Below are positions 2,576 through 50,226 of a DNA stretch of 50,382 nucleotides, piece after piece. The notes under the pieces are model-generated. The model saw only the letters and a list, made by a program, of their open reading frames with translations. It did not search any database and was not told where the DNA came from. The DNA lies in UHGV virus genome UHGV-1368299, one strand, 5' to 3'. The translations under genes were made by a program, and so were the position numbers. Positions within the stretch are counted from its first letter, which is position 1; every line of letters begins with the position of its first letter. Origin of the DNA: a virus.

Positions 2576-4144
2576 ATGTTTTTAAATGACCGCGTATCAC
2601 CGCAAGATATTATCGCCATCGCAGAAAGGGAGGGGATCAGTCCCCTGCGCGTTGCGATTCGTGCGAACGGGTATCGTGACTCCGTTTCATTCTGGCCAAA
2701 GCCCAAAGATATCGACGTAAACGCGGATAAATACCCAACAATCTCGATCGCAAATGATTACGATGTGGTCGGCAAGCTGGCGCTAAATGCAGCACGTTCT
2801 GTTCAGTTCCCGGAATCATCCGCTTACATGCACTTTCTCGGAACCGTGTCCGCCGCGATGATGGGTCGCTTTTGGGTCGAGTACCACGGCAGCGAGCAAC
2901 CGACAACGCTTTACGTTATCACGTCGCAGCCGCCTTCAGCTGGTAAGTCTGCCATTAACTCGCTGGCCATCGATCCGATCGTCGCCGAAGTCGAGCGCAT
3001 TAACGAGTCGCGCAAGAAGGAGCGTAAGAAAATCATGGCGAAGCTGTCCGCCAACAAGCAGGCGCTAAAAGGGGAGTTATCGCAATCTGATATGGTGAAA
3101 CTTTTCGAAGATCGTGACGAACTGGAAGAGAAACTTGAAAAATTATGTGATCTAACTTTCCCGGTATCCGATACCACCCCGGAAGGTCTGGCGAAGATTA
3201 ACAACCGCCAGGGAAACTTTGCCGTTATCTCGGATGAGGCGACGGCGGTTAACAGCCTTTTGGGGATCACGTATGGCAACGATGGCGGCAAGAAGACGAA
3301 CAGCGAACTGGTGCTCAAAGCATGGGATAAAGGCCACGTATCGATCGCTCGTTCCGACGTTAGCAATAATATGTCATTCGTGGCTTTGGGCTGCATTTGC
3401 GTAATTGCCCAGGATGAAACCATCGACGCCATCATGCAAGCGGGTTCTCGCGGGATCGGTGTCTCGGAGCGTTTCCTTTTGGTTCGTGAGCAAACCCGTT
3501 TAGGCGAACGCGTGTTCATCGACGAAAACGGGAATTCGACCTATGAGCCGATCGACCAGTCACTGAAGGCAGATTACTTCCGGCTGATTCATGACATTAT
3601 GAGCGAATCAAACGTTAAGTTGCAGGTTACTGACGCGGCAATGCGGAGACTGAACAAGGCCCGCCAGGAATTAGAACCAGAGTTAGGCGACGGCGGAAAA
3701 TATTCGCATACTATGCTTCGCGGCGCGATGGGTAAGTTTGATAAGCAGGTTATGCGTCTGGCGTCCGTGATTCACACGATCCGGAACTGGCAACCAGGCG
3801 GGAAGCGCTCGAAGAAGATCGACACGGCAACAATTGACGAAGCGATCATCATGTTCCATGAATTGAGCAAAACGTATTTGTCATCGGCTGACTCTTCCGG
3901 CTTTGCTGGTGAGGGAGCGGAGATTAAAGCGATGTATGACGTTATCGCCAGTCGTTGCAAACAGGCAAAAGGTGTTATGACCGTCCAGGGCATTTATAAC
4001 GCCTGCCGAAACCTGAAGATCTTCAAAGGCCAGGCAGGGGTGAGCAAAAAGATTAAGGAACGCTTATTGCCGAAGATGGAGGAATTAGGCTTTATCTGCG
4101 TGATGGATTCCGAAGTCTTTATCAACCCGTCTTTCATGAGGTAA
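2576..4144 (+). CDS. hypothetical 522-aa protein with P-loop-like SAGKS motif and central coiled coil (possible DUF3987-type ATPase)
   Basis: AGGAG SD; long ORF; PPSAGKSA motif; function inferred weakly. Confidence 0.7.
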   Translation: MFLNDRVSPQDIIAIAEREGISPLRVAIRANGYRDSVSFWPKPKDIDVNADKYPTISIANDYDVVGKLALNAARSVQFPESSAYMHFLGTVSAAMMGRFWVEYHGSEQPTTLYVITSQPPSAGKSAINSLAIDPIVAEVERINESRKKERKKIMAKLSANKQALKGELSQSDMVKLFEDRDELEEKLEKLCDLTFPVSDTTPEGLAKINNRQGNFAVISDEATAVNSLLGITYGNDGGKKTNSELVLKAWDKGHVSIARSDVSNNMSFVALGCICVIAQDETIDAIMQAGSRGIGVSERFLLVREQTRLGERVFIDENGNSTYEPIDQSLKADYFRLIHDIMSESNVKLQVTDAAMRRLNKARQELEPELGDGGKYSHTMLRGAMGKFDKQVMRLASVIHTIRNWQPGGKRSKKIDTATIDEAIIMFHELSKTYLSSADSSGFAGEGAEIKAMYDVIASRCKQAKGVMTVQGIYNACRNLKIFKGQAGVSKKIKERLLPKMEELGFICVMDSEVFINPSFMR

Positions 4145-10139: not shown

Positions 10140-10542
10140 TGATGGCATCGCAGAAAGCGATCTTGAATTGCTCGAAGCCATAGGCCACGGCGGCGAATCC
10201 GCCGCGACGGCGAACGGCAGCAAGGAATTCCCTTTGCTCCTTGCTCACTGGTGACGCCTGCGCCTTGCCCTGGCGCTTTAGCTCGATGGCCGCGAACGGG
10301 TATTTGCCACCGAACCCAATCAGGATCAGAATGTCGCTAACGCCCTTCAGCAACCCCATTTGATGATCGATAACTGCGCTCGCCTTGTGCTTGCTGCCTT
10401 CATTGACTGTGTGCCAGAACAGATAATCAGGGTATTCGTGCCGCAGCCACGAAACGCTATTCATCTGATCGATTTTCTCAAGCGGGCAAGCCTTTACAGG
10501 CCCGCCGTAGTATTCGAGATAATCACCTTTATCAGTAATCAC
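10135..10542 (-). CDS. VRR-NUC domain nuclease (PD-(D/E)XK)
   Basis: Characteristic D..ELK segment (SDILILIGFGGKYPFAAIELKRQGK), ~135 aa. Confidence 0.7.
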   Translation of the reverse strand: MITDKGDYLEYYGGPVKACPLEKIDQMNSVSWLRHEYPDYLFWHTVNEGSKHKASAVIDHQMGLLKGVSDILILIGFGGKYPFAAIELKRQGKAQASPVSKEQREFLAAVRRRGGFAAVAYGFEQFKIAFCDAIK

Positions 10543-12587
10543 TATTCGTCTCCAAAATCTTTGCGTGAAATAATATCTTCCTTCTTACCGTTAACGCGAT
10601 GCGTTACGCGCTTCGGCGCTCGGAAGTAATGCGCATTCTCAAGGATTTTTCGCGCATTCTTCATCCCGCCCAGCTTGCCGCGCATTACCGCGTCGCTAAC
10701 GTGCTGGAAGACTGCCTTTTGCCGCCACAACTTGCCGCAAATCTGATTCTCTGATTCCGGGAAGAACTTTTCCCTTGCGGTGAATCGCTCGCCGTCATGG
10801 TTCAGTAACACGTAATTGAAGATGATCCCGGACTGATTGCGAGTCAAGCCGATATCGAACCCGACAACATCATACCAGTCATTTTGCGTATAGTGTTTCC
10901 CGGTGAGATTGTCGTTGGGGTCTTTAAGCTGCACCCCGCAGCATCTGCACTGGCGAGCAACAATATCGTTTTCAGCGTAACACCCTTTTACTTTAATCTT
11001 CCCTGTTCGTGGGTCTTTCTGGTCTTCGCAGCGCTGCGAGATCCAGAAGTATTCGCAACGATTACCGTTGCTGTCTTTGTGGATGCATCGGCGGGCGTAC
11101 TCGCTATTTTCTCCCTTGCATACCGGGCAAATTTTCGGGCCGTTCTTGCTGCTCTTGCGTCTTTGGTATTGCGCCTGCTCAAGAATCGGATCGAAATATA
11201 GCTGGCCCAAATCGTCCATAGTCCCGGCGAAGTCCCAAACTAAATGGTCTTCCTTTACCCATGAGTAAGGCGGCTGTTTTTGCCAGTCTTTTAGCAGTCG
11301 CATACCGCGCCCCAAAAGCTGAATAAGCAACGTAAGCGATCCGATCTTGCGCAATATCACCGAAAAATCCCAAAACGGAACGTTAACGCCAGTGGTAAGG
11401 GCCATAACCTGGAAGATGTATTTAATCTCCCCGCGATTCGCCTTATCCAAAATTTCGCCGCGTTTCTTCGAGTTGGTCTTCTCGGTGATGATCGCGTATG
11501 TTGCGTCCGGCGGTAGATAGCTCGCCGCTTCCTTGCAATGCCGCTGGCCAGCGCAAGTAATAAGAACGCCGTTTCGGGTTTTCGCACGCTCCACGACCTT
11601 TTGCATAATCAGCTTCGTCATCTCGCCGGATTCATGGATTTTCTTTTCCATCTTGCGCAATTCTTCCGCGCTAAAATCCTGCGTACCGTCCTGACTGGAG
11701 CCGTGGAATTCTGAAAGATCATACCCCAACCCATCCGCCTCGGTGTCACCGAAGATGGTGGGAACTACAGATCCGAACTCGACAAGATAGTTTGTGTTAA
11801 TGTCGGTGATCTGCTCGCGCCAGAATCCGGGTTGTGTCTTATCCTCCTGCAAGATGGGAACCACACCGCGAAACTCAGAACCTGTATAGCCGACAATGCG
11901 AAGTTCTCGGCCAGTTTTCTCCAGGCACCGCCGCATTAACTCGCAAATGACGATGGTGTACTGCGTGCGCCCTGTTCCCTCCATAGGCAAGCCATCATCA
12001 CCAATCATGAACTCATCGCTTTCGTTATCGCTAGTTATATCATAATTTGGATTTGGTACTTTCTCTCCTTTCTCCGTTGTCATTTGTAAAAACGATTCAT
12101 TATTGGCGATCGCCTCCGCCAGATCTTGCCAGTCAACCTGGTGGCATTCGTCAATGGCCAGAACTGAAGGCACGTAGTCGCCCAGCATTTTAAACAGGCC
12201 ATTAACCACCGTCCCTTCAGATCCGACGACGATCGGGAAGTATGCGGCCTTCGTGCCTAACCCGGCGCAATAAACGGAGTTGGGAACATCGAGGTTACTG
12301 ATCTCCTCGGAATCCTGCTTCACGATCTCTGCCTGGCGAGCAAGAACCATCATGGGTAAGTTCATTGCCTTGCACTGCGCCGCGAGCATGGCGATCATGA
12401 TGGTTTTCCCGGCGGAAACCGAAGCCTTAATGTAAAAAGGATGTTCATATTTTGCGATCCGCTTCGCGGTCTCAATATACGCAACCGCCTGATACGGGTA
12501 AGGAACGATATTTCCGACGGTGAACCGCTTTTGTATTAGCGGGATCTTGTCTGCGTAGGCTTCAATTTGTTGTTCAATTGTGAGCAT
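10542..12587 (-). CDS. SF2 DNA helicase (DECH box) with C-terminal Cys-rich zinc-ribbon region (start moved to ATG 12587)
   Basis: Walker A SVSAGKT, motif II AIDECHQ; multiple CxxC pairs near C-terminus; AGGA SD. Confidence 0.8.
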   Translation of the reverse strand: MLTIEQQIEAYADKIPLIQKRFTVGNIVPYPYQAVAYIETAKRIAKYEHPFYIKASVSAGKTIMIAMLAAQCKAMNLPMMVLARQAEIVKQDSEEISNLDVPNSVYCAGLGTKAAYFPIVVGSEGTVVNGLFKMLGDYVPSVLAIDECHQVDWQDLAEAIANNESFLQMTTEKGEKVPNPNYDITSDNESDEFMIGDDGLPMEGTGRTQYTIVICELMRRCLEKTGRELRIVGYTGSEFRGVVPILQEDKTQPGFWREQITDINTNYLVEFGSVVPTIFGDTEADGLGYDLSEFHGSSQDGTQDFSAEELRKMEKKIHESGEMTKLIMQKVVERAKTRNGVLITCAGQRHCKEAASYLPPDATYAIITEKTNSKKRGEILDKANRGEIKYIFQVMALTTGVNVPFWDFSVILRKIGSLTLLIQLLGRGMRLLKDWQKQPPYSWVKEDHLVWDFAGTMDDLGQLYFDPILEQAQYQRRKSSKNGPKICPVCKGENSEYARRCIHKDSNGNRCEYFWISQRCEDQKDPRTGKIKVKGCYAENDIVARQCRCCGVQLKDPNDNLTGKHYTQNDWYDVVGFDIGLTRNQSGIIFNYVLLNHDGERFTAREKFFPESENQICGKLWRQKAVFQHVSDAVMRGKLGGMKNARKILENAHYFRAPKRVTHRVNGKKEDIISRKDFGDE

Positions 12588-12600
12588 GGGCAATCCTAAT

Positions 12601-12628
12601 TTGTCATTCGCATAGTTGCGTGTATAAT
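12601..12628 (+). promoter_or_regulatory. sigma70 promoter: TTGTCA -N16- TG-TATAAT (extended -10)
   Basis: Near-consensus -35 and perfect extended -10, 50 nt upstream of first + strand gene in divergent region. Confidence 0.6.
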
Positions 12629-12639
12629 ACATGGAACAT

Positions 12640-12669
12640 TTTATCAGGTTTAACAAAAAATGCTATGAG
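12640..12669 (-). promoter_or_regulatory. degenerate cassette copy (TTTAACAAAAAATGCTATG) in divergent promoter region
   Basis: Partial match to 20-mer; no hairpin. Confidence 0.3.
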
Positions 12670-12678
12670 GGTTAAATT

Positions 12679-13080
12679 ATGGAACAAATGGCAAAGATTG
12701 ATAAGCGAACCTTGAACGGCAATAACGGAACATCGCGCGGGAAAGATAAGAAGAAACGCAAGCGACCGACTGGTTACTACGTGCTGAAGGATGAGGTTCG
12801 CGCCGGGTTGACTGCGCGGATGGAGCTGGTTATTGATGCCTTTGGTGGTATCGCTGGAACGGCAAAAGAGTTGGGGGTTAGCATCCAGGTTGTTCAGCAG
12901 TGGCGTAAGCGCGGCATGATCTCAGCCGATGGCGCTTATCTCGTACATAAGAGCTACCGCCGGAACAATTGCAAAGGTTTCCGCTCCTCATTCTGCCGAC
13001 CTGATTTAAGATTTGACAGCAACGGCAAGCCAGTGACGCGCCGATGCGACCGCCGGGAAATGCTCCGCGTTGTCCGATAG
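12679..13080 (+). CDS. HTH DNA-binding protein (Cro/YdaS-like motif GVSIQVVQQWRKRG); C-terminal ~40 aa low-complexity, true stop uncertain
   Basis: First gene downstream of strong promoter; HTH signature; basic N-terminus. Confidence 0.5.
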   Translation: MEQMAKIDKRTLNGNNGTSRGKDKKKRKRPTGYYVLKDEVRAGLTARMELVIDAFGGIAGTAKELGVSIQVVQQWRKRGMISADGAYLVHKSYRRNNCKGFRSSFCRPDLRFDSNGKPVTRRCDRREMLRVVR

Positions 13081-13155: not shown

Positions 13156-14115
13156 GTGGATTTTTACGATGAAAAAGAGGTTTTGCCGTACATGGCTGGT
13201 ATGTGGCGCGAAGCGTTGCAGAACATTTGCGGCATTCACTCCCGATATTTCAACGGCAAACACCAGGACTGTCCGAACTGCGGCGGCAAAGACAGATTCC
13301 GCTGGACTGACAAGTTAGAAACGCGCGGCGACGGCGGGGCATACTGCGGTGGCTGCGGCGCTGACAAGGGGATCGGGTGGTTGATGAAGTTAACTGGGCA
13401 GCCTTACAGCGAGTGCATCAACATTCTTGGGCGCTATCTCGGCAAGATTCCGCAGGAATACGTGGTCAAGAGAAATAAGCAGGTCGCCAGAGATAACGGG
13501 TACGACTACGGGAAGGTGGCAGACCATGAAAGAGTCGTGGCGATTCTGAACAGAACGGAGGCCGTTGATAGCACGCCTGTAACGCTCTATGAAGGCATAG
13601 AAAACGAGCACGTCAAATCATATCAGGTGGGCGTGAAAACTCACGAGAACGGCAGGCAGGAGCTAATTCACGCGCTACCGATGCAACTCGTGCATGAAGA
13701 TGGGCCGGATGATGAGTATTGCAATATCCTGTTCATTGATGAGGATGGCCGCGAGAAGATGTTAGCTGGCGATCTGACCTTCGGTTCGGTGATAGTGACC
13801 AATCAGAGCGACGACGGTAACGGGCCGATTTACCTTGCTCGATCCTGGATTGAGGCGATGCACTTCAATATTGCCAGTTCGTTCAAGTGCGACGTTTGGG
13901 CCTGCATCATCCCTTCCAATGTCGAGATCGTGGCGTACAGGTATAAAGGCAAGGGCGGAGAAGGTAAGCGAGAAATGCGGGTAGTTTGCCGTCGTGGAGA
14001 TCGGGATATGCTGGCGTCCGCCGACGATCGGGATCTAAAGGTTATCGTTCCGAACGGTGACAACTTCAAGCTCGGATTTGAGCGTAAGTTATACAAGGCA
14101 TCATCTCTTCTCTGA
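13156..14115 (+). CDS. DNA primase (zinc-ribbon + Toprim-like)
   Basis: CPNCGGKDRFRW...CGGCG zinc-binding primase motif; GTG start with GGAGG SD. Confidence 0.75.
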   Translation: MDFYDEKEVLPYMAGMWREALQNICGIHSRYFNGKHQDCPNCGGKDRFRWTDKLETRGDGGAYCGGCGADKGIGWLMKLTGQPYSECINILGRYLGKIPQEYVVKRNKQVARDNGYDYGKVADHERVVAILNRTEAVDSTPVTLYEGIENEHVKSYQVGVKTHENGRQELIHALPMQLVHEDGPDDEYCNILFIDEDGREKMLAGDLTFGSVIVTNQSDDGNGPIYLARSWIEAMHFNIASSFKCDVWACIIPSNVEIVAYRYKGKGGEGKREMRVVCRRGDRDMLASADDRDLKVIVPNGDNFKLGFERKLYKASSLL

Positions 14116-14610
14116 TTAAATATTGACCAGAAATTAGGTAAGATTGAGAAAATCAGTCTTACCTTTTTTTATGCCTGAAATTCAGCGACTTGCAACTGGT
14201 CGAACCACTTTAGGTAAGATTTAGTAAGATGAATCTTACGTAAATTTCGCGCAAAATTTAACCAATTACCCGCCATATATAGATAGTAAGTATATGATAA
14301 ATAATAATATTATTATTATTACTCTATCTCTCTATACTTATCTTGGTAAGATTTCTCCGGGGTACGTATCTTTTTTCGCTGGATTTCGCGCCAGATTTTT
14401 CATGGATATTTACCTATAGGGATCTTACTATCTTACCGATTTGCATTAACTCGATGAAATATATAGGAAAAATCACGTAAGATGCATCTTACTAAATCTT
14501 ACGTAAATTTCGCTCATTTTTTGACCAACTACGGATAGCACTTTTTGACTTGCGCCGGGAATCGTCATGCGTATACTTAACGCAACGAAACCACAAATGG
14601 AGCAATATCA
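14116..14610. repeat. 495-bp AT-rich non-coding hub: about 10 copies of GGTAAGAT/ATCTTACC, two 19-bp direct repeats AATCTTACGTAAATTTCGC, 16-bp perfect palindrome GTAAGATGCATCTTAC, 18-bp AT palindrome AATAATAATATTATTATT
   Basis: Read directly; no ORF over 40 codons; mirrored by second hub at 49.4-49.7 kb. Confidence 0.7.
14136..14171 (+). terminator. rho-independent terminator (AGGTAAGA...TCTTACCT + T7)
   Basis: 8-bp stem, T7 tract, right after primase stop; stem arms are GGTAAGAT iteron copies. Confidence 0.55.
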
Positions 14611-15657
14611 ATGGCTGAAGCAATTTTCAGGGCATACACCAGCGGTGAATTGACCAACGAGCAATATCACGATCCTAACTCCTGGTGCGCGGAGTACGTT
14701 AGCGGCTCAAGCCTCGGCGAGATTTACGCAACATCCCCGGCGCACTGGAAATTCAAGTTGCGTGAGGAAACCGCCGCGCTGGCGTTCGGAACCTGTTCGC
14801 ATACCTGTATGCTTGAGACGGCAAAATTTAATGGCGAGTACCTGCGGGCGACTTCTCCGGGCGAGGTTAAAGATCTGATTACGTCGAAGTCGGCACTGTC
14901 TGCGAAGCTGAAAGCGTGTGGCCTGATTGGGACGTCCAACAAGGATTACCCGGAACTTCTGGAAATGGCATATCGCGCCGGGATTGACGTAAATGTTTGG
15001 TGGGCGATTGAACTTTGCGACGAAAGCGCCGCGATGAACTCCGGGCGCAAGCTGGTTAAGGATGTTGATTTCGATGCCGTTGTTCAAATGCGCAGCGTGA
15101 TGCTGGCCAACCCGCGACACGCCGCATGTATCGAATCGCCTACCGCACAGCGTGAATTGTCAATCTTCGGTGAGATCTTCGGCGTCAAGGTCAAGGTTCG
15201 GCTCGATCATGTTGACGTTGTTTCCGATCCAGAACTCATCAAGGAGTGGGGGTTCAACCAGGATGAAGTTTTCGAGGTAGTGGTGATTACCGACTACAAA
15301 ACCACACAATCTTCCAAGCCGGACGATTTCGGGCGACTCGCCTTCAATTTGGGCTACTATCTCAAGATGGCATTGCAGCGCGATCTGTTTGTGAAGACAT
15401 ACAACGAAAAACGCCCGGTAGTTGTCAGACTGCTAACGCAGGAGAAAAAATCACCGTTTGCTCCGCTGGCGTTCACCCTGACCAGCCAGCAGATCGAGAT
15501 CGGTCGCAAGCAGTATCAAAGCGTGATTCATCAGTATGCGGAATGCGTGAAGCATGATTCATGGCCATCATATGAGTCAAACGCGGCGGAAGTCGTTTTG
15601 CCTACTCCGCAGTTTGTGAAATACATGTTCCCGGACGTATACGGCACAAATAGCTAA
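14611..15657 (+). CDS. PD-(D/E)XK recombination exonuclease (RecE/YqaJ/Cas4-like)
   Basis: VVVITDYKTT (D-x-K) motif; located with erf and ssb. Confidence 0.7.
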   Translation: MAEAIFRAYTSGELTNEQYHDPNSWCAEYVSGSSLGEIYATSPAHWKFKLREETAALAFGTCSHTCMLETAKFNGEYLRATSPGEVKDLITSKSALSAKLKACGLIGTSNKDYPELLEMAYRAGIDVNVWWAIELCDESAAMNSGRKLVKDVDFDAVVQMRSVMLANPRHAACIESPTAQRELSIFGEIFGVKVKVRLDHVDVVSDPELIKEWGFNQDEVFEVVVITDYKTTQSSKPDDFGRLAFNLGYYLKMALQRDLFVKTYNEKRPVVVRLLTQEKKSPFAPLAFTLTSQQIEIGRKQYQSVIHQYAECVKHDSWPSYESNAAEVVLPTPQFVKYMFPDVYGTNS

Positions 15658-15716
15658 ACACTGGTGCGCACTTGTGATATAGTGCGCATTACCAATCAGG
15701 AAAAGGAAACTTTATC

Positions 15717-16373
15717 ATGCGTACATCTGAAAAATTTACCACCATTGCAGCCGCATTAATCAAAGCAAAATCTGGCTTCGTGGCCGCGAAGAAAAGCGGG
15801 AAGAACAACCATCTTGGGAACACCTACGCGAATCTTGGGGATATCCTCGACGCGATTTCCCCGGCGCTGGAGAAGAACAAAATTATGGTCATTCAATCCA
15901 TGATGGATACGAGCACCGAAAAGGTGATGCACCTCGAAACGATGTTTTTGCATGAAAGCGGCGAGTTCATGGCGTTTCAGTACAATATGCCGATCAGTAA
16001 AACCGTCGAGCAAGCATATGGTTCAACAACATCTTACGCCCGCCGTTATGCGCTGGCCGCGGCGCTCGGTATCAAGCAGGCGGATGATGATGCAGAAATT
16101 ACGAAGATGACGCCGAAAGACTTCAAAAAACGCATTGACGCGTGCGAAGATCTCGAATCGCTTCGCGAGATCTATAAGCTGGCGAAACAAACGTTAACTC
16201 CTGCCGAATGGAAAATGACGGAAGACGATATCACCAAACGCCAGGCTGAACTGAAAGTCACCCCGGCGAACGGCTTCAATCCTGGTAAACCGCAAGAGGT
16301 TGCGAAACGTGAGCCTGAAAAGGTAGAATCAAAACCTGAACCAGAAGCACAAGATATTTCATCTTTCAACTAA
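15717..16373 (+). CDS. erf: ERF-family single-strand annealing protein
   Basis: GSTTSYARRYALAAALG motif typical of Erf; AGGAAAAGGAAA SD. Confidence 0.8.
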   Translation: MRTSEKFTTIAAALIKAKSGFVAAKKSGKNNHLGNTYANLGDILDAISPALEKNKIMVIQSMMDTSTEKVMHLETMFLHESGEFMAFQYNMPISKTVEQAYGSTTSYARRYALAAALGIKQADDDAEITKMTPKDFKKRIDACEDLESLREIYKLAKQTLTPAEWKMTEDDITKRQAELKVTPANGFNPGKPQEVAKREPEKVESKPEPEAQDISSFN

Positions 16374-16409
16374 TTTAACCGGGCGGGAAACCGCCCCATA
16401 GGAATGACA

Positions 16410-16871
16410 ATGCATGTTGTAACAGGTGTAATCCGAAAAGAACCGTACATCAAGGAAGGCAGCAATAACAACGGGCCGTGGAAAATGTACGCCGTAGACC
16501 TGTCGGAGCGGATGAAGATCCGCAATCGTGATGGCGAGGACGAAACAATTTACACGAACTACCGCGCTGTTTTCTTTGCCAAAGAAAATATGATTAAGTG
16601 GTACGATGAAGCGCTGCAAGTGGATAGGGTGATTAGCGTCACCTGCCGGACGCTTCAGATCGTGAACCGCGAGCACAACGGCACAATTTACAGCCACAAC
16701 GAAATGATTATGCCGCAACTCGAATTCAGCCAGCGCGAGCCGACTCAAAACGGCGGCAATCAGCAATCCGGGTGGGGCCAGCCTCAACAACCCAAGCCGC
16801 AGCAAGCGCCTAAACCGCAAAACAGCGGCGGTAATCCGGGGATGGATTTCTACGATGATATCCCGTTCTAA
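16410..16871 (+). CDS. ssb: single-stranded DNA-binding protein (SSB)
   Basis: OB-fold-like N-terminus, Gly/Gln/Pro-rich tail ending DDIPF; start moved to second ATG with AGGA SD. Confidence 0.8.
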   Translation: MHVVTGVIRKEPYIKEGSNNNGPWKMYAVDLSERMKIRNRDGEDETIYTNYRAVFFAKENMIKWYDEALQVDRVISVTCRTLQIVNREHNGTIYSHNEMIMPQLEFSQREPTQNGGNQQSGWGQPQQPKPQQAPKPQNSGGNPGMDFYDDIPF

Positions 16872-16881
16872 TTTGACAACT

Positions 16882-16909
16882 AAAGGGGCCGAAAAGCTCC
16901 TTTTTTTTT
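16882..16909 (+). terminator. rho-independent terminator (AAAGGGGC cgaaaa GCTCCTTT + T9)
   Basis: Stem with one G-U pair on + transcript, T9 tract. Confidence 0.6.
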
Positions 16910-16963
16910 CTGTTCATTGATGCTATTATTTGCGCTATTCAACCAACCCAAGAGGATTAAAAC

Positions 16964-19900
16964 ATGGCACTATACAGAGAAGGCAAGGCAGCACTAGCCG
17001 CAGACGGAACAGTTACCGGGACTGGCACAAAATGGCAATCATCGCTTTCGCTAATTCGCCCTGGCGCGACGATTATGTTTTTATCGTCACCAATTCAAAT
17101 TGCTGTGGTAAACAAGGTGGTCAGTGACACTGAAATTAAAGCAATTACCACAAACGGCGCTGTCGTAGCGTCTACTGACTACGCGATCCTGTTAAGCGAC
17201 TCGCTGACCGTTGACGGCCTGGCGCAAGATGTTGCGGAAACTTTGCGTTACTATCAGTCGCAAGAAACCGCAATTGCGGATGCAGTCGATTCCTTTAAGG
17301 ATTTCGATTTCGAGTTGTTTAAAAATCTTGCCAGTCAGGTGAAGGCAGACTCTGAAGCTGCTAACGTAAGCGCTGCTAATGCTGCGGATTCTGAAAACTC
17401 GTCAAAAACTTCAGAAACTAACGCCAAAACCTCAGAGACTAACGCCAAGTCTTCTGAAAACGCGGCGAAAACTTCAGAGATTGCAGCGGAGAATGCAAGA
17501 GACGCCGCAGTAGCTGCACAGCAAGAGTCAGAAAATGCCGCAGCAGAATCTAAGAACTATGCGCTTCAGGCATCAGAAGTTGGAAACATGTTCTCTGATG
17601 AGGCGGCAGGATTGGCTGCTACATCAAATGGTCAATTCTTTCAGGTTCCTCAGGGTTCTGGAAGTTTTGTTTCATTCAAACTTTTTAAAAATAATAATGG
17701 CGTTGCTGAAGAAGTTGCGCGAGTTCCAGGCGCGGCAGCCATAACAGGGACAATCCGTGATTTTCCTACGCTTGCTTCGGCTCAGGCGGACGCAGATGCT
17801 GGCAACATACCTGTAGGATCAACTGCGTATTACCGCAGCCATGATGATAGTGCGCTGGCTATTGAGGTTATTAACAACGGTGGAACGCTTGAGCCTACTG
17901 GCCGGAAAATGCCGTCGCAGTATTCTGTTGAGCAGGCGCTGACTGCTGCCGGTCAGGTTGCCACTGCGGCCTCTGTACGAGACAATCAGTTACACGGAAT
18001 GAGTATGCCAGAACGGCGTACGCTGGCAGCAGACTTTACCCAGTATCTGGATGCGTTTTCTTCCGGCGGATCATCGGCACTGAACGTATCGGCGACTTAT
18101 GCAGATCGTGTGTTGCTGTCCATTTCCTCTTTCGCCACTAATTTTGCTACAGCTGCATGCACTCTGACGCTAACGGGAGCGGGAAGGACGCTGTTCAGTC
18201 AGGGGTTTTTTGACGGGGAAACGCTGACCGATGGTGTTTTGACAACCCCGTATTATGACGTGGCAATGCGGCAGTTTACCGTGAACAGCGTTTCTGCGGG
18301 TAATGATGCCTGGGTGCTAAAAGGGACAATCAAACTACCACAAGCGTATTCAACTACAGAGGCTCGTGTACTGCGTGACCGTAAAAACAGAATCCAGATC
18401 GGCATAGCATCGTCTGCATATACATACACTGTAGATACGCTTGCTTTTGATGCGGCTAATTCGCTGCTGTATGTAGCGGTATCACGTTCGGCGATGATTG
18501 CCGCTGGATATGCCGACACCACAGAAGGTGCTCAGAGGTATTTCTGGGATACCTACGGCGGGATTATCCTCAGCCAGAAATCCACCGCTTCTCAGACGCT
18601 GCCGGAATACACATTGTTTTTCTCAGAGGCGGGGACGGTGACAGCAGTAACCGACCAGAACTGCACGGCGACTATTCAGGTGACAAAAAAACTGTCTCTT
18701 GACGTGGGGAAAATGCAGTCAGACGCCAATGCCGTGAATATTGCTGCAAATGCCCAGACGTATGCTGCCGACAGGTTGCGGGCGCTGTCTGCTGAGTTGC
18801 CGGAGTTCAGTAACGATCTGGGTGTGGTAGGGAGTTTCTCCTCTGCGGTAGCCTACAGCGCCACCTTTAACGGTCCCTCGATTTTCAGACTGAGCAGATT
18901 GTCTCTGGCGACGAATAACAGGCGTATGGTGCTGTCTATAACGGACAGTCTGGGTACGGTGGAGAAACTGACGCTGCTGGAGGGGGAATCCATTTCCGGC
19001 GCAACTATTTCATCGCCGTACGTGGATTTTATCTTCGAACCGCGCATAATCAATTCGGTGGCGATCAACACCACCACGGGACGGACCCTGATGTATATTC
19101 CGGTGACATTACCGGGGGCATTACCATCAGACACGACGCGCATTATTCGCGACAGAGAAGGGGTATACGAAGCGTATTTACCGACTACCATCGCGGGCGG
19201 GACTTCCGCGGGGATCACTTATGATGCCTCTTCAGGAAGTCTGATGCTGGCGGTAATGAATGCGGCGGTGACCGCCGCCGGATATGAACTCACAACTGCC
19301 GGGGTTATTAAGTATGTTGTCAGTGAGTTAACTGGCAAGGTTTTTAGCCAAATCTCATCGACAACGGTCACGCAGGTTTTCTGTAATCTGTTTAAGCTGG
19401 CTCCGGGCGCGGTGACGGTGACAACGGACGGGAATGCTGCGACGGATAAAGTGGTGACCATGACTGGCTCATTCTATGGACCTAAAATGACAACAGATGA
19501 ACTGACTACATACAGACGCTATGAAACCACCGTTCGTAATAATACCGGTTATGCGACAGGACTGCGCCCGGTAAAAATTAAATGCAAGTTCGGTCCGGGA
19601 GAGGTTCCGAACGACAGATGTCTGGTGGTGACGGATGCAGATGGCACGGTTTATCCATGCCAGTGGGCGGGAGAGCCGGATTTCAACCCGCGCCGGGGTC
19701 GCAATCTGAGTTACTGGGGCGATGACTCCCTGCGCAGCGGTGAGCTGCTTATTCTGGATAATCTCTCCGCCGGGGCAGCAAAAAAATATGTGGTTAAAGC
19801 CTACCCGACAGAGCAGTCTGCTTCACTGTACAGCCGCACGGTAAGAGAATCGTCCACCAGTTTTCTTGTGACAGCAGATGACGGGACTCAGGTACGTTTT

Positions 19901-21628
19901 GATAGCGTGGTAGGCTGGCTGCCATACAAACTGACGCGGGACAGCATCACCTATACCAACATTTGTCAGCAGCTTTATGCGACCGTAACGGGGACGGCGT
20001 GGTCGTATGTCGCGGCGGGATATACGGATTACCGTTATCAGGTTATCAGCGACGGACCGTTATTTACCGAAGTGGAGACCACCTTCTTTAATGGTGCCCA
20101 GACCGGAAATGTGGCGCTCCCGGTTGGGGTGATTAAGCACACATACCGGACGAAAGTCTTCAGGAATGGCTACGTACAGATTGATGCATCCGCTCGTCTT
20201 CTATCAGCCCTGGCGGCGAATATACTGTTTGCGTGTGTGACGCGGATCCAGCTGAACTCCACAGCGACAAAGGCGTACCGCGCTGATTACAACTCGGTGT
20301 GGACGGATAACTCGGTTGTCCGGTCAATCGCTATCCGCTACGCCGGAGGGGATGCTATCCGTGACTCGGCGGAATCCGCCACGCTGGGAAACCGTACGCC
20401 TGTGGCAGGCCTGACCACGAATACGACCTATTCCCGTTTTGACGGGGGGTGGACGGCGGGGACGTGGAACGCATCAGCATCAACGCTGGGCGCACCGAAA
20501 AACTGGGCATGGACAGTGGGATTTAGTATTAACCTGAATGAGTCAGTGACCGATCCCACGGCATTGTCTGACATTGAACTGAACCCCCCGGTGGGGTTTG
20601 CGTCAGGAGAGTCGGTTTATCCGCGATTCAGGCAGGCGAAACTGATGAGTCGTCTGGGGGATACTATCAGCGGTATTGCGGCATGGAATGCGCTGGATGC
20701 GACAAGTACCGACAACGGCGGCGGGATGTTCAACACCATTGCCGGCGATATTGTGCGCATGCTGCATCTGAAAATCGGCACGCTCGATACGGTCTATGCG
20801 AAGTTCGACGCCTGGGCAACTACCTGGTACGGCGGTATCAGTAATATTCATCTGGGTGCTGCGGCTGAATCTAAAGGGTTGCAGTTTGCGTCACGACTGG
20901 TCCTTCCGCAGTTGTGGTGGCTGTACAAACTGGCGGTGCTGAATGGTGATACGGCAAAACAAACCGCGTTAAAGACAGCTATCGGTAATATGGCAGCTGA
21001 TTGCTATTCGGCATTCGGTACTGTTGGTTCAGCAAACAGCAACTTTTATGCAGCAGCGTTCCGTTCCTGGGCGATGGCGGTGGCAGTTGGAATTGATCCG
21101 TCTGGCAACTACACAGCCGCGATGGATATGGTTGACGGGCAGTTTTCCAGCCCAACCTATTTTGCCGGAGTGAAAAACATTATTACCGATAATGTCACTG
21201 AGAATGTTCCGAAGCGTCGCTATCTGCATTATCAGGTGTATGCATGGAATAACTATCTGATCGGATGTAAGGCGGCAGGAAGAACCCCGGCTCTGAACAT
21301 GGAGACGTATGCATTAAATGCGATATCAGGGTACGGGGGTCTTAAAGAGGTGGATTACTGCATCGCAGAATCCCGTCGCGGCCAGCCGACAACGGTAGGG
21401 TTCATTCTGTACCCGCTCCTACACTCCGGGGATAACACTTGCCTCGAAGCGGCTGAGCGCCTGATGGATGCGTTTGATGAGTATGGTGGTTCGAATACCG
21501 ACGGGCAGATCAAGCTGTGGGATCTGGATTTTTATTCGGTGATATCCACGACATTCTCGGAGTATACCTTCGCCTGTAACATCATGGCCGATGCATGGAT
21601 GCAATGGTGGTTCGACAACAACCAGTAG
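16964..21628 (+). CDS. tail fibre protein (1554 aa) with N-terminal S-E-T/N-A-K tail-fibre repeats
   Basis: AAGAGGA SD; repeated [23 protein letters not shown] motif typical of phage fibres; Gly/Thr/Ser-rich beta-structure composition. Confidence 0.85.
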
Positions 21629-48750: not shown

Positions 48751-48810
48751 TTGTCGATGGAAAGATAATACCCGATCTACCTGACCGGGGTTTTAACAAA
48801 AAGTGCTATT
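48751..48810 (-). promoter_or_regulatory. cassette copy 12 (GTCGATGGAAAGATAATA + CCCGATCtacctGACCGGGG + TTTTAACAAAAAGTGCTATT)
   Basis: Full module. Confidence 0.6.
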
Positions 48811-49384
48811 GCTTGCCGTGCTGGCTGATATCGCTGGCGGTCAACCCAAGATCGATAGCCGCGAACAAGTTCGCCTTGTAAATCCCGGTCAGAGCATCCC
48901 CGGCGAAGTCTACGGCAAGAGCGGACACTAAACCCTTAATCCTTTCCCGCTCGGAGGTGGCGCCCTGCCGCCTGTATGCCTCAGCCTCCAGGTGCGAGCC
49001 AGTCATTGCGTCGAACTCGGTAAAGACGGAGATTAACCCCGCTCCCAGGCTAACGCGCAACACCTCGCCCGGCTCCATGAGTTTCAGCAACGGCCTGCGG
49101 AAATGGTTGTCGACCGGATTAACGCCGAACTTCTCCATGAACTCCTCCGCCGTCATCTGGATACTCCGCCCGCCATCCAGGAACATGCGCCGGATCTCGG
49201 ATGAGCGATTGCCAGTGAATGTGCCTTCCGTCTTCGCTGCTTCCTGGCTCCGTCCGGCTGGCCTGGTGGCGTCGCCAAACGTGATGGATTGCAGCCATTC
49301 ATGGTAAGCGGCTTGCTTTTCTGCGTCGTACCGCATCCACTCGGACACGTCGACTTCTTCGAACTCATAGCCTTTGTATTGCAT
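48806..49384 (-). CDS. hypothetical protein (192 aa), first gene of right-arm early operon
   Basis: GGGGGA SD; downstream of candidate promoter. Confidence 0.55.
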   Translation of the reverse strand: MQYKGYEFEEVDVSEWMRYDAEKQAAYHEWLQSITFGDATRPAGRSQEAAKTEGTFTGNRSSEIRRMFLDGGRSIQMTAEEFMEKFGVNPVDNHFRRPLLKLMEPGEVLRVSLGAGLISVFTEFDAMTGSHLEAEAYRRQGATSERERIKGLVSALAVDFAGDALTGIYKANLFAAIDLGLTASDISQHGKQ

Positions 49385-49431
49385 TTGTGTTTCCCCCACA
49401 CTTACGGCGTTTGGTAATGTTTCGGAAGGTG

Positions 49432-49460
49432 ATAATACAGGCCGCAGGCCTTGCCGTCAA
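49432..49460 (-). promoter_or_regulatory. candidate sigma70 early promoter TTGACG -N17- TATTAT (minus strand)
   Basis: Good -35/-10 with 17-nt spacer about 45 nt upstream of first early gene. Confidence 0.45.
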
Positions 49461-49720
49461 AGGGTTTCGGCGTGTTTGGTAAGATTTGCTGTCATCCCCT
49501 ATATATCCCTATATACATTTTTTCGCGGCGGAACATCTAAAAATTATGGCTTGCGCAAGGTGAATCCATAACATCCCCGGAGAAATCTTACCAAACATAT
49601 ATAAAGATAAAGAGTAATAATAATAATATTATTATTTATCATATACTTATATATCTATTATAGGCTTATATTGGTCACTTTTTGCGCAATTTTTAGGTAA
49701 GATTATTCCTCCCCCACACT
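49460..49720. repeat. AT-rich hub 2: GGTAAGAT iterons (inverted pair TTTGGTAAGATTT/AAATCTTACCAAA), CCCTATATA x2, inverted copy of the 45-bp element around AATAATAATATTATTATT
   Basis: Read directly; reverse complement of 49621..49666 matches 14283..14326 with 2-3 mismatches. Confidence 0.65.
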
Positions 49721-49837
49721 CCCACACGACGTAAATGTTGGCGAAACACAACTCGACGTTTTGCTGGCTTCGAACGGCAAATTGCGTGCATGGTGCATAC
49801 ATTTATGCAATTCGTTGCAAATCCTGAAACACTCCCA

Positions 49838-49965
49838 AAATCATTGCACAGAATGAAACAATCAAAAGCAATCATGATTCGTCAAAACTAATCACCAGGG
49901 AATCAGGTGCAATCACCATCTATTCCACTATTCCGAATCGGTGGAATAATCAGCAATCGCAGGAA
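49838..49965. repeat. AATCA motif repeated 7 times with about 10/21-bp phasing + 8-bp inverted repeat TATTCCAC/GTGGAATA
   Basis: Read directly; non-coding. Confidence 0.5.
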
Positions 49966-50043
49966 TAGCATTTTTTGTCAAAAGCCATCCGATCGGCTTT
50001 GCTATGATGACTTCAACGAAACGAATTGTAGTGGAGTGGAGCA

Positions 50044-50226
50044 ATGAGACTCAAAGAGAAAGACATAGCATATGAAAATGGAAAATTTTGGGTATTAAAA
50101 AACAAAGATGGTTTTCACGTGATGATCTCAGGAATTACACATAGTGTAAGTGACAGTTCATATCGTCAGTTAGATTTAGCAATTGCACGGTGTGATTATC
50201 TCGCAAGACGTGCAATGAGAAATTAG
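50044..50226 (+). CDS. hypothetical protein (60 aa)
   Basis: GGAG SD; candidate extended -10 TGCTATGAT at 50000-50008. Confidence 0.5.
   Translation: MRLKEKDIAYENGKFWVLKNKDGFHVMISGITHSVSDSSYRQLDLAIARCDYLARRAMRN

What the first reader, a model, noticed from the sequence alone, without database searches (positions are those of the whole stretch)
14116..14610. Two AT-rich non-coding hubs share GGTAAGAT iterons and an inverted ~45-bp AT-palindrome element
The 495-bp gap between primase and the recombination genes is non-coding and repeat-rich. It holds about 10 copies of GGTAAGAT/ATCTTACC and two 19-bp direct repeats AATCTTACGTAAATTTCGC, each preceded by a GTAAGATG(A/C)ATCTTAC palindrome. It also carries the perfect 18-bp AT palindrome AATAATAATATTATTATT at 14300..14317. 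A second hub at 49460..49720 carries the same octamer as the inverted pair TTTGGTAAGATTT ... AAATCTTACCAAA and a third copy at 49693, together with CCCTATATA x2. It also carries the same AT element with ~15 bp of matching flanks in the opposite orientation. Iterons next to an easily melted palindrome are the classic layout of a replication origin or a multi-site regulatory locus bound by one protein. One hub sits inside the replication/recombination operon. The other sits at the divergent early-promoter region.
Basis: seen in the sequence. Interest (0 to 1): 0.7.

Follow-up and report, generated by a model that had tools for sequence, protein, structure and literature searches.

The report
Paired protein-binding hubs around AT-rich cores
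This T1-like Klebsiella phage has two related non-coding stretches where copies of one short DNA word surround the two easiest-to-melt spots of the genome; every T1-like lineage checked has the same layout with its own word, which makes these the best candidates so far for the unmapped replication origins of this phage family, or failing that for a shared gene-control site.

Summary
GTAAGAT occurs 17 times in the window (4.1 expected): 10 in the 495-bp primase-exonuclease gap and 3 in the second gap. Three corrections apply. Only 4 copies in hub 1 are exact GGTAAGAT octamers. The first pair is the stem of the primase terminator. The shared element is a ~175-bp paralogous module with 39 identical bases, not ~45 bp. 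The perfect 18-bp palindrome is not conserved within the genus.

The window is a Webervirus (T1-like) genome. In seven diverged relatives the heptamers are almost invariant (75/77 columns, against 65% elsewhere in the gap). The two AT cores are the least stable duplex stretches of the genome. T1, Rtp and 17 further T1-like genomes have the same two hubs, one 200-410 bp upstream of the exonuclease gene and one at the divergent early region. Each lineage has its own motif, usually shared by both hubs. That points to one phage-encoded binding protein and excludes a host factor.

My best reading is iteron-type replication origins that also touch nearby promoters (0.45). A purely transcriptional operator array is the main rival (0.33). 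The binding protein is unidentified. No held paper describes these hubs.

The parts
14136..14171 (+). Rho-independent terminator of the regulator-primase unit. The stem is AGGTAAGATTGA/TCAGTCTTACCT, the loop GAAAA, followed by T7. The stem arms are the first 'iteron' pair.
   Evidence: Terminator scan. The stem is invariant and the loop variable in 7 Webervirus sequences. It is annotated as a terminator in phages Solomon and Sin4.
14209..14247 (.). Left site cluster: GTAAGAT at 14214(+), 14224(+) and 14233(-). The spacing is 10 and 9 bp. It includes the 7-2-7 palindrome 14224-14239.
   Evidence: inverted repeat I1 pairs it with 14469-14507 at 90% complementarity. All three heptamers are invariant in 7 genomes.
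14232..14410 (+). Paralogous module shared with hub 2 (49704-49532, opposite strand). It runs from the core-flanking site ATCTTAC, through TTGCGC..ACCAAT and the AT core, to TTGGTAAGATTTCTCCGGGG and a variable tail.
   Evidence: Local alignment. Exact runs of 39 nt and 20 nt.
14275..14335 (.). AT-rich core of hub 1 (85-90% A+T), the second least stable duplex stretch of the genome. It contains the 18-bp palindrome 14300-14317 and an IHF-like word on the minus strand at 14287-14299.
   Evidence: Nearest-neighbour stability scan at 40, 60 and 100 bp. The palindrome is not conserved in the genus.
14343..14362 (+). Core-flanking site on the right, TTGGTAAGATTTCTCCGGGG, identical in both hubs. Together with 14233(-) it forms an inverted pair 113 bp apart around the core.
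   Evidence: In hub 2 the equivalent pair (49585-, 49697+) is 112 bp apart.
14422..14437 (-). Tandem sites ATCTTAC-T-ATCTTACC, 8 bp start to start, preceded by the conserved TTTACCTATAGG.
14469..14507 (.). Right site cluster: GTAAGAT at 14477(+), 14486(-) and 14496(-). It includes the 7-2-7 palindrome 14477-14492 and is the mirror image of the left cluster.
   Evidence: This is the most conserved part of the gap, with 95-100% invariant columns.
14535..14577 (+). Probable exo-operon promoter: the family-wide ATAGCAC element lies 76 nt upstream of the exo ATG. It is followed by TTGACT/TTGCGC and TATACT (14572-14577).
   Evidence: Read from the sequence. Conserved. ATAGCAC-type 21-nt repeats about 76 nt upstream of start codons are described for phage TLS (PMC11447400). 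The generic sigma-70 scan does not call it.
49432..49460 (-). Predicted sigma-70 promoter (TTGACG-17-TATTAT) for the leftward first gene, whose ATG is at 49385-49383.
   Evidence: Promoter scan, 10 of 12. This is a consensus match only.
49478..49485 (+). Hub-2 site GGTAAGAT, about 53-60 bp upstream of the predicted leftward transcription start.
49532..49704 (-). Hub-2 copy of the paralogous module, with flanking sites at 49585-49592(-) and 49696-49703(+).
49597..49656 (.). AT-rich core of hub 2 (90-93% A+T), the least stable duplex stretch of the genome. It contains the palindrome copy 49619-49636 and TATCATATACTTA at 49637.

Best explanation
The two hubs are paralogous cis-acting assemblies. 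A phage-encoded, lineage-specific DNA-binding protein occupies GTAAGAT sites arranged in three ways: an inverted pair 112-113 bp apart around each AT core, tandem copies 8-10 bp apart, and two 7-2-7 palindromes.

I think they are most likely the phage's replication origins. They could be two origins, or an origin plus an auxiliary site, as in SPP1 oriL/oriR or P4 ori/crr. In this model, site binding strains and opens the 60-100-bp AT core. The phage's MCM-like DUF3987 helicase and its P4-alpha-like primase are then loaded there. The promoter-proximal copies of the same sites let the same protein tune the adjacent exo-erf-ssb promoter and the leftward early promoter, much as plasmid Rep proteins use iterons for initiation and inverted repeats as operators.

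Shown: the sites, their arrangement, their conservation, the exceptional meltability of the cores, the family-wide two-hub layout, and concerted change of the motif in both hubs. Inferred: that a single phage protein binds the sites, that melting and helicase loading occur here, and which protein is responsible.
For: Over-representation and clustering. 17 heptamers against 4.1 expected, 13 of them in the two gaps.

Selection on the sites. 75 of 77 heptamer columns are invariant, against 271 of 419 other gap columns (Fisher p = 8e-11). The whole gap is 82-86% identical in the five more diverged relatives, where flanking third codon positions are 52-73% identical.

Meltability. The cores are the two least stable stretches at 40-, 60- and 100-bp scales: -34.7 and -35.9 kcal/mol per 40 bp, against a genome mean of -57.2 (sd 4.1) and a next-lowest value of -43.2.

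T1. All six TGTAACA copies lie in the exo-upstream gap (4) or the left-end gap (2), each with its own AT core.

Rtp. Both gaps share a module with GTTACGC/TTACGC/GTTACA copies 10-11 bp apart next to the AT core.

Other lineages. In 21 genomes (17 non-Webervirus T1-like plus 4 Webervirus) an AT core lies 200-410 bp upstream of exo and another lies upstream of the DUF3987 helicase operon. In 20 of the 21, hub 1 aligns to hub 2 in the same relative orientation as here. In lineages with a clear motif the same motif fills both hubs: TGGGACA at 6-10 copies per hub, GAAACAA at 4 and 5, GTAAACA at 4 and 3. In several other lineages no strongly shared 7-mer came out.

Arrangement. Copies typically flank the core as inverted or tandem pairs.

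Replication proteins. The phage encodes its own replication proteins but no recognised initiator. It has a primase with a zinc ribbon. It has a DUF3987 protein whose confident model (pLDDT 88.9) matches MCM helicases and ends in a winged-helix-like fold, in agreement with PMC4889955 and PMC11724360. It also has a Cro/YdaS-like HTH protein between helicase and primase.

Literature. The origin of T1-like phages is reported as not found (PMC11447400).
Against: There is no direct evidence of initiation. GC skew simply follows gene orientation, with no independent inflection at hub 1.

The module keeps the same orientation relative to the downstream operon in almost all genomes, and the core keeps a roughly fixed distance to exo. 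A promoter-linked element would be expected to do that, and a pure origin would not need to.

Some sites sit just upstream of predicted promoters, and 7-2-7 palindromes are typical operators.

The binding protein could not be identified. Both the HTH protein and the helicase's winged helix change with lineage, so the comparison does not discriminate between them.

Two origins in one 50-kb lytic genome is possible but not the rule.
Confidence: 0.45

Rival explanations
1. Purely transcriptional control region. The sites are operators or activator sites for a phage regulator, for example the conserved Cro/YdaS-like HTH protein (T1 gp23 homologue, 12679-13080). This regulator would co-ordinate two early or middle operons: exo-erf-ssb and the operon leaving hub 2 leftward. 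The AT core would act as an UP, curved or looping element, or as a promoter cluster.
For: Both hubs lie upstream of operons, and the module has the same orientation relative to the downstream genes in 20 of 21 genomes. The AT core keeps a 200-410-bp distance to the exo start. There are two 7-2-7 palindromes. One site lies at about -53 to -60 of a predicted sigma-70 promoter in hub 2. In the TGGGACA lineage an inverted site pair ends 4 bp before the ATAGCAC promoter element. In L023 a palindrome lies just upstream of a TTGACA-16-TACTAT promoter. A family-wide HTH protein is encoded nearby. In the window's subclade TGGTAAGAT reads as an extended -10 element.
Against: No site overlaps the -35 or -10 of the predicted exo promoter; the nearest site ends 32 bp upstream of ATAGCAC. 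The scan finds no convincing sigma-70 promoter in or next to the AT cores. The TG of the putative extended -10 is lost in other Webervirus genomes. The HTH gene's own divergent promoter region has no GTAAGAT-like site. A 60-100-bp tract of 85-93% A+T flanked symmetrically by sites is more than an UP element needs. In a strictly lytic family there is no immunity selection to drive fast turnover of operator specificity.
Confidence: 0.33
2. Packaging-related element. The hubs would be recognition sites for the small terminase (pac), as in P1 or SPP1, where repeated short motifs flank the cleavage region.
For: The deposited T1 sequence starts (coordinate 1, start of the 2.8-kb terminal repeat) about 200 bp from the T1 hub-2 AT core. 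The T1 end sequence GTTGCATGGTGTGCAAC resembles window 49786-49802, about 80 bp to the right of hub 2.
Against: Hub 1 carries the same module and even more sites but lies 35 kb away, next to replication and recombination genes. T1-type packaging is described as starting from one pac site (PMC11447400). The similarity to the T1 end lies outside the GTAAGAT/AT module.
Confidence: 0.07
3. Binding sites for a host transcription factor or nucleoid protein. From memory, TAAGAnnnnTCTTA fits the RcsB-type consensus and the NarL-style 7-2-7 layout.
For: The palindromes TAAGATGAATCTTA and TAAGATGCATCTTA fit the RcsB box as I recall it (TN(G/A)GAN4TC(T/C)NA). This is a recollection, not a test. TATCATATACTTA in both cores is one mismatch from the IHF consensus WATCARNNNNTTR, also from memory.
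Against: The hub motif differs between T1-like lineages while the layout stays the same, including phages listed for the same host, E. coli: T1 TGTAACA and Rtp GCGTAA/GTTAC. A conserved host factor would keep one motif. Most copies are single or tandem half-sites, not palindromes.
Confidence: 0.03
4. Repeats with no sequence-specific function: a leftover of duplication or recombination in AT-rich spacer DNA, or a small protein-coding gene (the 41-codon ORF 14294-14419).
For: The ORF is open in all 7 Webervirus sequences, and the two indels are multiples of 3. Some annotators call it a gene.
Against: The heptamers are far more conserved than the rest of the gap. The layout recurs across genera with different motifs. 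The indels lie in an (ATT)n run that slips by threes. About 40% of the ORF's residues change between subclades, and the hub-2 paralogue is frameshifted. No ribosome-binding site precedes the ATG.
Confidence: 0.04

Closest known systems
Bacillus phage SPP1 oriL / oriR, bound by the origin-binding protein G38P
   Same: A lytic siphovirus with two widely separated non-coding or embedded sites. Both carry the same repeated binding boxes next to an AT-rich stretch and are bound by one phage protein. Only one fires early, and the other acts later or as a block (abstract of PMC3485210; box details from my own knowledge).
   Different: No homology of proteins or sites was tested here. In SPP1, oriL lies inside the initiator gene. 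Here both hubs are intergenic, the binding protein is unknown, and the helicase is MCM-like rather than DnaB-like.
Satellite phage P4 ori and crr, bound by the alpha primase-helicase
   Same: Two separated cis elements carry the same short iterons in several orientations, and both are bound by the replication protein. The T1-family primase is annotated as related to P4-alpha-type primases. The P4 ori/crr details are from my own knowledge.
   Different: P4 alpha unites primase, helicase and origin-binding domain in one chain. Here the primase (319 aa) and the helicase (522 aa, DUF3987) are separate, and no binding was tested. P4 crr is a tandem duplication 4.5 kb from ori, not an inverted paralogue 35 kb away.
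SaPI (staphylococcal pathogenicity island) origins and iteron plasmids (Rep/iteron/operator logic)
   Same: Sets of short island- or plasmid-specific repeats flank an AT-rich region. Specificity co-evolves with the initiator. In iteron plasmids, inverted copies of the iteron act as the promoter operator (own knowledge).
   Different: No Rep-type initiator gene is recognisable next to the hubs. The first gene downstream of hub 2 is mosaic, and its type does not track the motif.
21-nt ATAGCAC direct repeats of T1-like phages (described for TLS)
   Same: A family-wide non-coding repeat of unknown function in the same genomes. One copy (14535) lies inside hub 1, 76 nt upstream of exo, exactly as described (PMC11447400).
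   Different: It is a different element. ATAGCAC has the same sequence in all genera, is scattered before many early genes and points with transcription. The hub motif is lineage-specific, confined to two loci, and occurs in both orientations around an AT core.
Lambda-type ori (four iterons plus an AT-rich region)
   Same: Repeats in helical phase beside an AT-rich unwinding region.
   Different: Lambda ori is single and lies inside the O gene. The TLS authors looked for such repeats inside the helicase gene and reported none.

Membership tests
Iteron-type replication origin | Three or more copies of a short binding motif clustered in non-coding DNA | tested here: met
   10 GTAAGAT copies in 495 bp and 3 in hub 2, against 4.1 expected genome-wide. 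Tandem spacing is 8-10 bp.
Iteron-type replication origin | Adjacent AT-rich DNA-unwinding element | tested here: met
   The cores at 14275-14335 and 49597-49656 are the two least stable stretches of the genome. This shows meltability, not unwinding.
Iteron-type replication origin | A cognate initiator protein binds the repeats | not testable with these tools
   The candidates (Cro-like HTH protein, winged helix of the DUF3987 helicase) both vary with lineage and could not be told apart.
Iteron-type replication origin | Replication starts at the site | not testable with these tools
   GC skew is uninformative because it follows transcription. No mapping data were found.
Iteron-type replication origin | Specificity co-evolves with the element (lineage-specific repeats, conserved layout) | tested here: met
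   Different motifs in T1, Rtp and the TGGGACA, GAAACAA, GTAAACA and ATCTACCGC lineages, shared by both hubs of one genome where a motif is clear.
Operator array of a Cro/CI-type HTH regulator | Dyad-symmetric sites | tested here: inconclusive
   There are two 7-2-7 palindromes (14224-14239, 14477-14492). The other nine copies are single or tandem.
Operator array of a Cro/CI-type HTH regulator | Sites overlap or abut the promoters they control | tested here: inconclusive
   No overlap with the predicted exo promoter; the nearest site ends 32 bp upstream of ATAGCAC. One site lies at about -53 to -60 of the predicted hub-2 promoter. Sites abut the promoter in other lineages. The promoters are predictions only.
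Operator array of a Cro/CI-type HTH regulator | Regulator gene present, usually autoregulated through the same sites | tested here: inconclusive
   A Cro/YdaS-like HTH protein is present, below the Pfam cut-offs (21.5 and 21.2 bits against 30) and matching PHROG 2856. Its own promoter region has no GTAAGAT-like site.
ATAGCAC 21-nt repeat of T1-like phages | Consensus aaATAGCACnnnTTGnTAAAA, about 76 nt upstream of a start codon, in the direction of transcription | tested here: not met
   GTAAGAT is a different word with a different distribution. A separate ATAGCAC copy at 14535 does meet the definition.
Rho-independent terminator (for 14136-14171 only) | G+C-containing hairpin followed by a T run, downstream of a gene | tested here: met
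   12-bp stem, 5-nt loop and T7, 21 nt after the primase stop.
Known structured RNA | Match to an Rfam family | tested here: not met
   No match at gathering score in the window. Only chance-level matches in hub 1.
pac site of a headful-packaging phage | Unique site at the start of the packaging series | tested here: not met
   The module is present twice, 35 kb apart. The similarity to the T1 end lies outside the module.

The most novel reading that the evidence does not exclude
T1-family phages start replication at two concertedly evolving, dyad-symmetric origins. Inverted site pairs on either side of an AT core would be read by the C-terminal winged helix of the phage's MCM-like (DUF3987) helicase. 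Two helicase rings would then load head-to-head and melt the core. This would be a bacterial-virus counterpart of SV40 or papillomavirus origins, built with an MCM-type motor and needing no separate initiator.
Probability: 0.12. Interest if true: 0.8.

Novelty: new member of a known kind. Interest (0 to 1): 0.6.

Why it matters
T1 is one of the classic coliphages, and its relatives (Drexlerviridae, including the Klebsiella Webervirus phages used in therapy studies) still have no mapped replication origin and an unclear transcription programme. A 2024 re-annotation of TLS reports finding no iterons. The paired hubs give two precise, testable positions in every genome of the family and a short motif whose binding protein can be sought. 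If they are origins, they also indicate where an MCM-like phage helicase is loaded. If they are operators, they define the missing regulator circuit for the recombination operon and the early genes. In either case they are sites to avoid or to exploit when engineering these phages.

Tried and rejected
GC and AT skew. The cumulative skew only mirrors gene orientation, so it says nothing about an origin.

Sigma-70 reading of TAAGAT as a -10 element. The -35 partners are missing or 19-21 nt away, and the extended-10 TG is not conserved.

Rfam. No match.

Host RcsB/NarL-type box. This was a resemblance from memory. I rejected it because the motif differs between T1-like lineages, including phages listed for E. 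coli.

First gene downstream of hub 2 (197 aa) as the binding protein. It is mosaic and exists in two types within Webervirus, and phages with the alternative type (L023, L016) still keep GTAAGAT.

Covariation to choose between the gp23-like HTH and the helicase winged helix. Both follow phylogeny, so the test does not discriminate.

The plasmid collection returned only a Webervirus genome deposited as a 'plasmid'.

Literature searches for the motif, for T1 origin mapping and for Webervirus transcriptomics found nothing relevant. Roberts et al. 2004 (T1 genome) and Wietzorrek et al. 2006 (Rtp genome) were not among the papers I could read, so an earlier mention of the AT-rich regions there cannot be excluded.

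The 41-codon ORF was considered and judged non-coding.

Full report
**What the window is.** The primase-exo gap matches about 345 Klebsiella phage records of the genus Webervirus (Drexlerviridae, T1-like) at 82-99% identity, and the best hit is phiW14. The 50.4-kb window is essentially a whole genome.

Around hub 1 the genes are:
- an SF2 helicase (10542-12656, minus strand);
- a Cro/YdaS-like HTH protein homologous to T1 gp23 (12679-13080);
- a zinc-ribbon primase (13156-14115);
- the 495-bp gap;
- then exonuclease VIII, Erf and SSB.

Hub 2 (49402-50043) is the divergent region between a leftward operon and a rightward early operon. The leftward operon starts at 49385 and runs through small early genes toward the terminase and structural genes. 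The rightward operon starts at 50044 and, continuing across the window's end, contains the DUF3987 helicase at 2576-4144.

**The observation.** GGTAAGAT occurs 8 times (0.97 expected) and GTAAGAT 17 times (4.1 expected). Ten heptamers lie in hub 1 and three in hub 2.

Three corrections are needed:
- The pair at 14137-14164 is the stem of a terminator hairpin with a T7 tail, directly after the primase stop.
- The element shared by the hubs is not ~45 bp. 14232-14410 (+) aligns with 49704-49532 (-), including exact runs of 39 and 20 nt.
- Hub 1 as a whole has mirror symmetry. The left cluster (14209-14247; sites + + -) and the right cluster (14469-14507; sites + - -) are 90% complementary.

In both hubs the AT core is bracketed by an inverted pair of sites 112-113 bp apart.

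**Is it under selection?** I aligned seven Webervirus sequences, six of them relatives spanning 82-92% identity to the window. In that alignment 75 of 77 heptamer columns are invariant, against 271 of 419 other gap columns (Fisher p = 8e-11). In the five more diverged relatives the gap is 82-86% identical, while flanking third codon positions are only 52-73% identical. The 18-bp perfect palindrome is not conserved: other subclades have TCTAACTATATT and 3- or 6-nt deletions. The cruciform-type reading of that palindrome should therefore be dropped. High A+T content is what is kept. By nearest-neighbour energies the two cores are the two least stable stretches of the genome at 40-, 60- and 100-bp scales, about 5 standard deviations from the mean.

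**The wider family.** This comparison changes the picture most.

T1 has a 527-bp gap upstream of exo and a 538-bp gap at its left end, each with an AT core. All six TGTAACA copies in the T1 genome lie in these two gaps. The total count is not above chance; the clustering is the signal. The motif was picked from the first gap, and both remaining copies fall in the second (p about 1e-4, my arithmetic).

Rtp shows a paralogous module in the same two places, with GTTACGC/TTACGC/GTTACA copies 10-11 bp apart beside the core.

I then collected 80 loci around the DUF3987 helicase and 80 around exo from IMG/VR. Nearly every locus that reached far enough upstream has an AT core upstream of the helicase operon, and all 21 paired genomes have another 200-410 bp upstream of exo.

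Of those 21 paired genomes, 17 are non-Webervirus T1-like and 4 are Webervirus. Twenty of them align hub 1 to hub 2 in the same relative orientation as the window. Where a lineage has a clear motif, it fills both hubs:
- TGGGACA(AA), 6-10 copies per hub;
- GAAACAA, 4 and 5 copies;
- GTAAACA, 4 and 3 copies;
- TACCGCAAAA, 2 and 4 copies;
- GTAAGAT in Webervirus, 10 and 4 copies.

In several other lineages the k-mer screen found no strongly shared 7-mer, so this point rests on a subset. The copies usually flank the core as inverted or tandem pairs.

A conserved layout with a motif that changes in both hubs together indicates a single trans-acting, phage-encoded protein. It excludes a host factor, because T1-like lineages listed for the same host, E. 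coli, carry different motifs.

**Candidate proteins.** The DUF3987 protein gives a confident model (pLDDT 88.9). Its best structural matches are MCM2-7 and archaeal MCM, and it ends in a helix-strand-helix-helix-hairpin fold of the winged-helix type. This agrees with published work that classes DUF3987 as MCM-related replicative helicases with a C-terminal winged HTH, and that showed helicase activity for one member (PMC4889955, PMC11724360). The gp23-like protein has a Cro-like HTH and is present in 825 phage records. Both proteins differ between motif lineages, but both simply follow phylogeny, so I could not tell them apart. The first gene downstream of hub 2 is hypervariable and mosaic. 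Webervirus phages carrying its alternative type (L016, L023) still keep GTAAGAT, so it is unlikely to be the binding protein.

**Origin or operator?**

For an origin:
- the symmetric, helically phased sites around the most meltable DNA;
- lineage-specific specificity;
- a phage-encoded helicase-primase set with no recognised initiator;
- precedents of two separated sites bound by one replication protein (SPP1 oriL/oriR; P4 ori/crr, from my own knowledge).

For transcription control:
- the constant orientation and distance relative to the downstream operons;
- the palindromes;
- sites just upstream of predicted promoters.

The two readings are not exclusive, since iteron plasmids use the same word for initiation and for promoter control. 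GC skew does not help, Rfam finds nothing, and no relevant experiments were found in the library. The TLS re-annotation explicitly reports that no origin-type repeats were found, and it lists the ATAGCAC repeat as an open question.

I put 0.45 on origins, possibly with coupled promoter control. I put 0.33 on a purely transcriptional array. The rest is spread over packaging, host factors and non-function.

**Verdict.** The feature belongs to a known kind, binding-site arrays around an AT-rich core. It appears undescribed for this family in the literature I could read, and it makes the question of the T1 origin directly testable.

Noticed in passing
window 565, 1554, 13077, 13568, 14535, 40451 (+); 1156, 10132, 44144, 44441, 45137, 45926, 46803, 47342, 47955, 48803 (-): There are 16 ATAGCAC elements. 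Most lie before early genes and point with transcription, as described for the 21-nt repeat of phage TLS. In three cases I read by eye (14535, 12660-, 49965), a TTGnnA follows 3 nt later and a TATnnT hexamer 21-22 nt after that. That spacer is too long for a standard sigma-70 promoter.
   Followed up: partly
window 2576-4144 (+): The DUF3987 protein (T1 gp9 homologue) folds like an MCM-type AAA+ helicase with a C-terminal winged helix (residues ~446-516). That C-terminal part has almost no invariant columns in the alignment of relatives.
   Followed up: yes
window 48806-49385 (-); loci L016 and L023: The first gene downstream of hub 2 is mosaic. Webervirus genomes carry one of two unrelated N-terminal types, and the window's C-terminal ~45 residues are shared with a distant group of T1-like phages. 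T1 and Rtp have unrelated proteins of similar size at the same position.
   Followed up: partly
L016 6120-6540: A Webervirus with an identical helicase carries eight extra CCACAAA copies in hub 2, in addition to two retained GTAAGAT sites. This suggests a second lineage-specific binding motif.
   Followed up: no
window 49495-49537: The block CCCCTATATA(T)..GCGGAACA recurs about 100 bp from the hub-2 core in distant lineages (L016, L049, L053, L054). It is conserved across genera, unlike the hub motif.
   Followed up: no
window 14294-14419 (+): A 41-codon ORF starting in the AT core is open in all 7 Webervirus sequences compared, and some annotators call it a gene. There is no ribosome-binding site, many residues change, and the hub-2 paralogue is frameshifted. 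It is probably not coding.
   Followed up: yes
window 49780-49960: A run of GCAAT/TGCA-containing words, including GCGTGCATGGTGCATAC at 49786-49802, resembles the first bases of the deposited T1 genome (start of the terminal repeat). This is a candidate region for the packaging start, just outside hub 2.
   Followed up: no
window 14287-14299 (-) and 49637-49649 (+): TATCATATACTTA lies inside both AT cores and recurs in a distant lineage (L053). It is one mismatch from the IHF consensus as I remember it.
   Followed up: no
window 14611-21628 compared with T1 (L009 30378-34881): In T1 and Rtp, exo-erf-ssb is transcribed convergently with the tail-fibre and primase genes. In Webervirus, primase, exo, erf, ssb and the tail fibre all run in one direction, so the hub1-exo-erf-ssb block is inverted relative to T1. 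The hub stays attached to exo in both arrangements.
   Followed up: partly
plasmid collection record CP124687.1 (49,647 bp): A record deposited as a Paraclostridium bifermentans plasmid matches hub 1 at 96.5% and has the size of a Webervirus genome. It is probably a phage genome, possibly a contaminant, filed as a plasmid.
   Followed up: no
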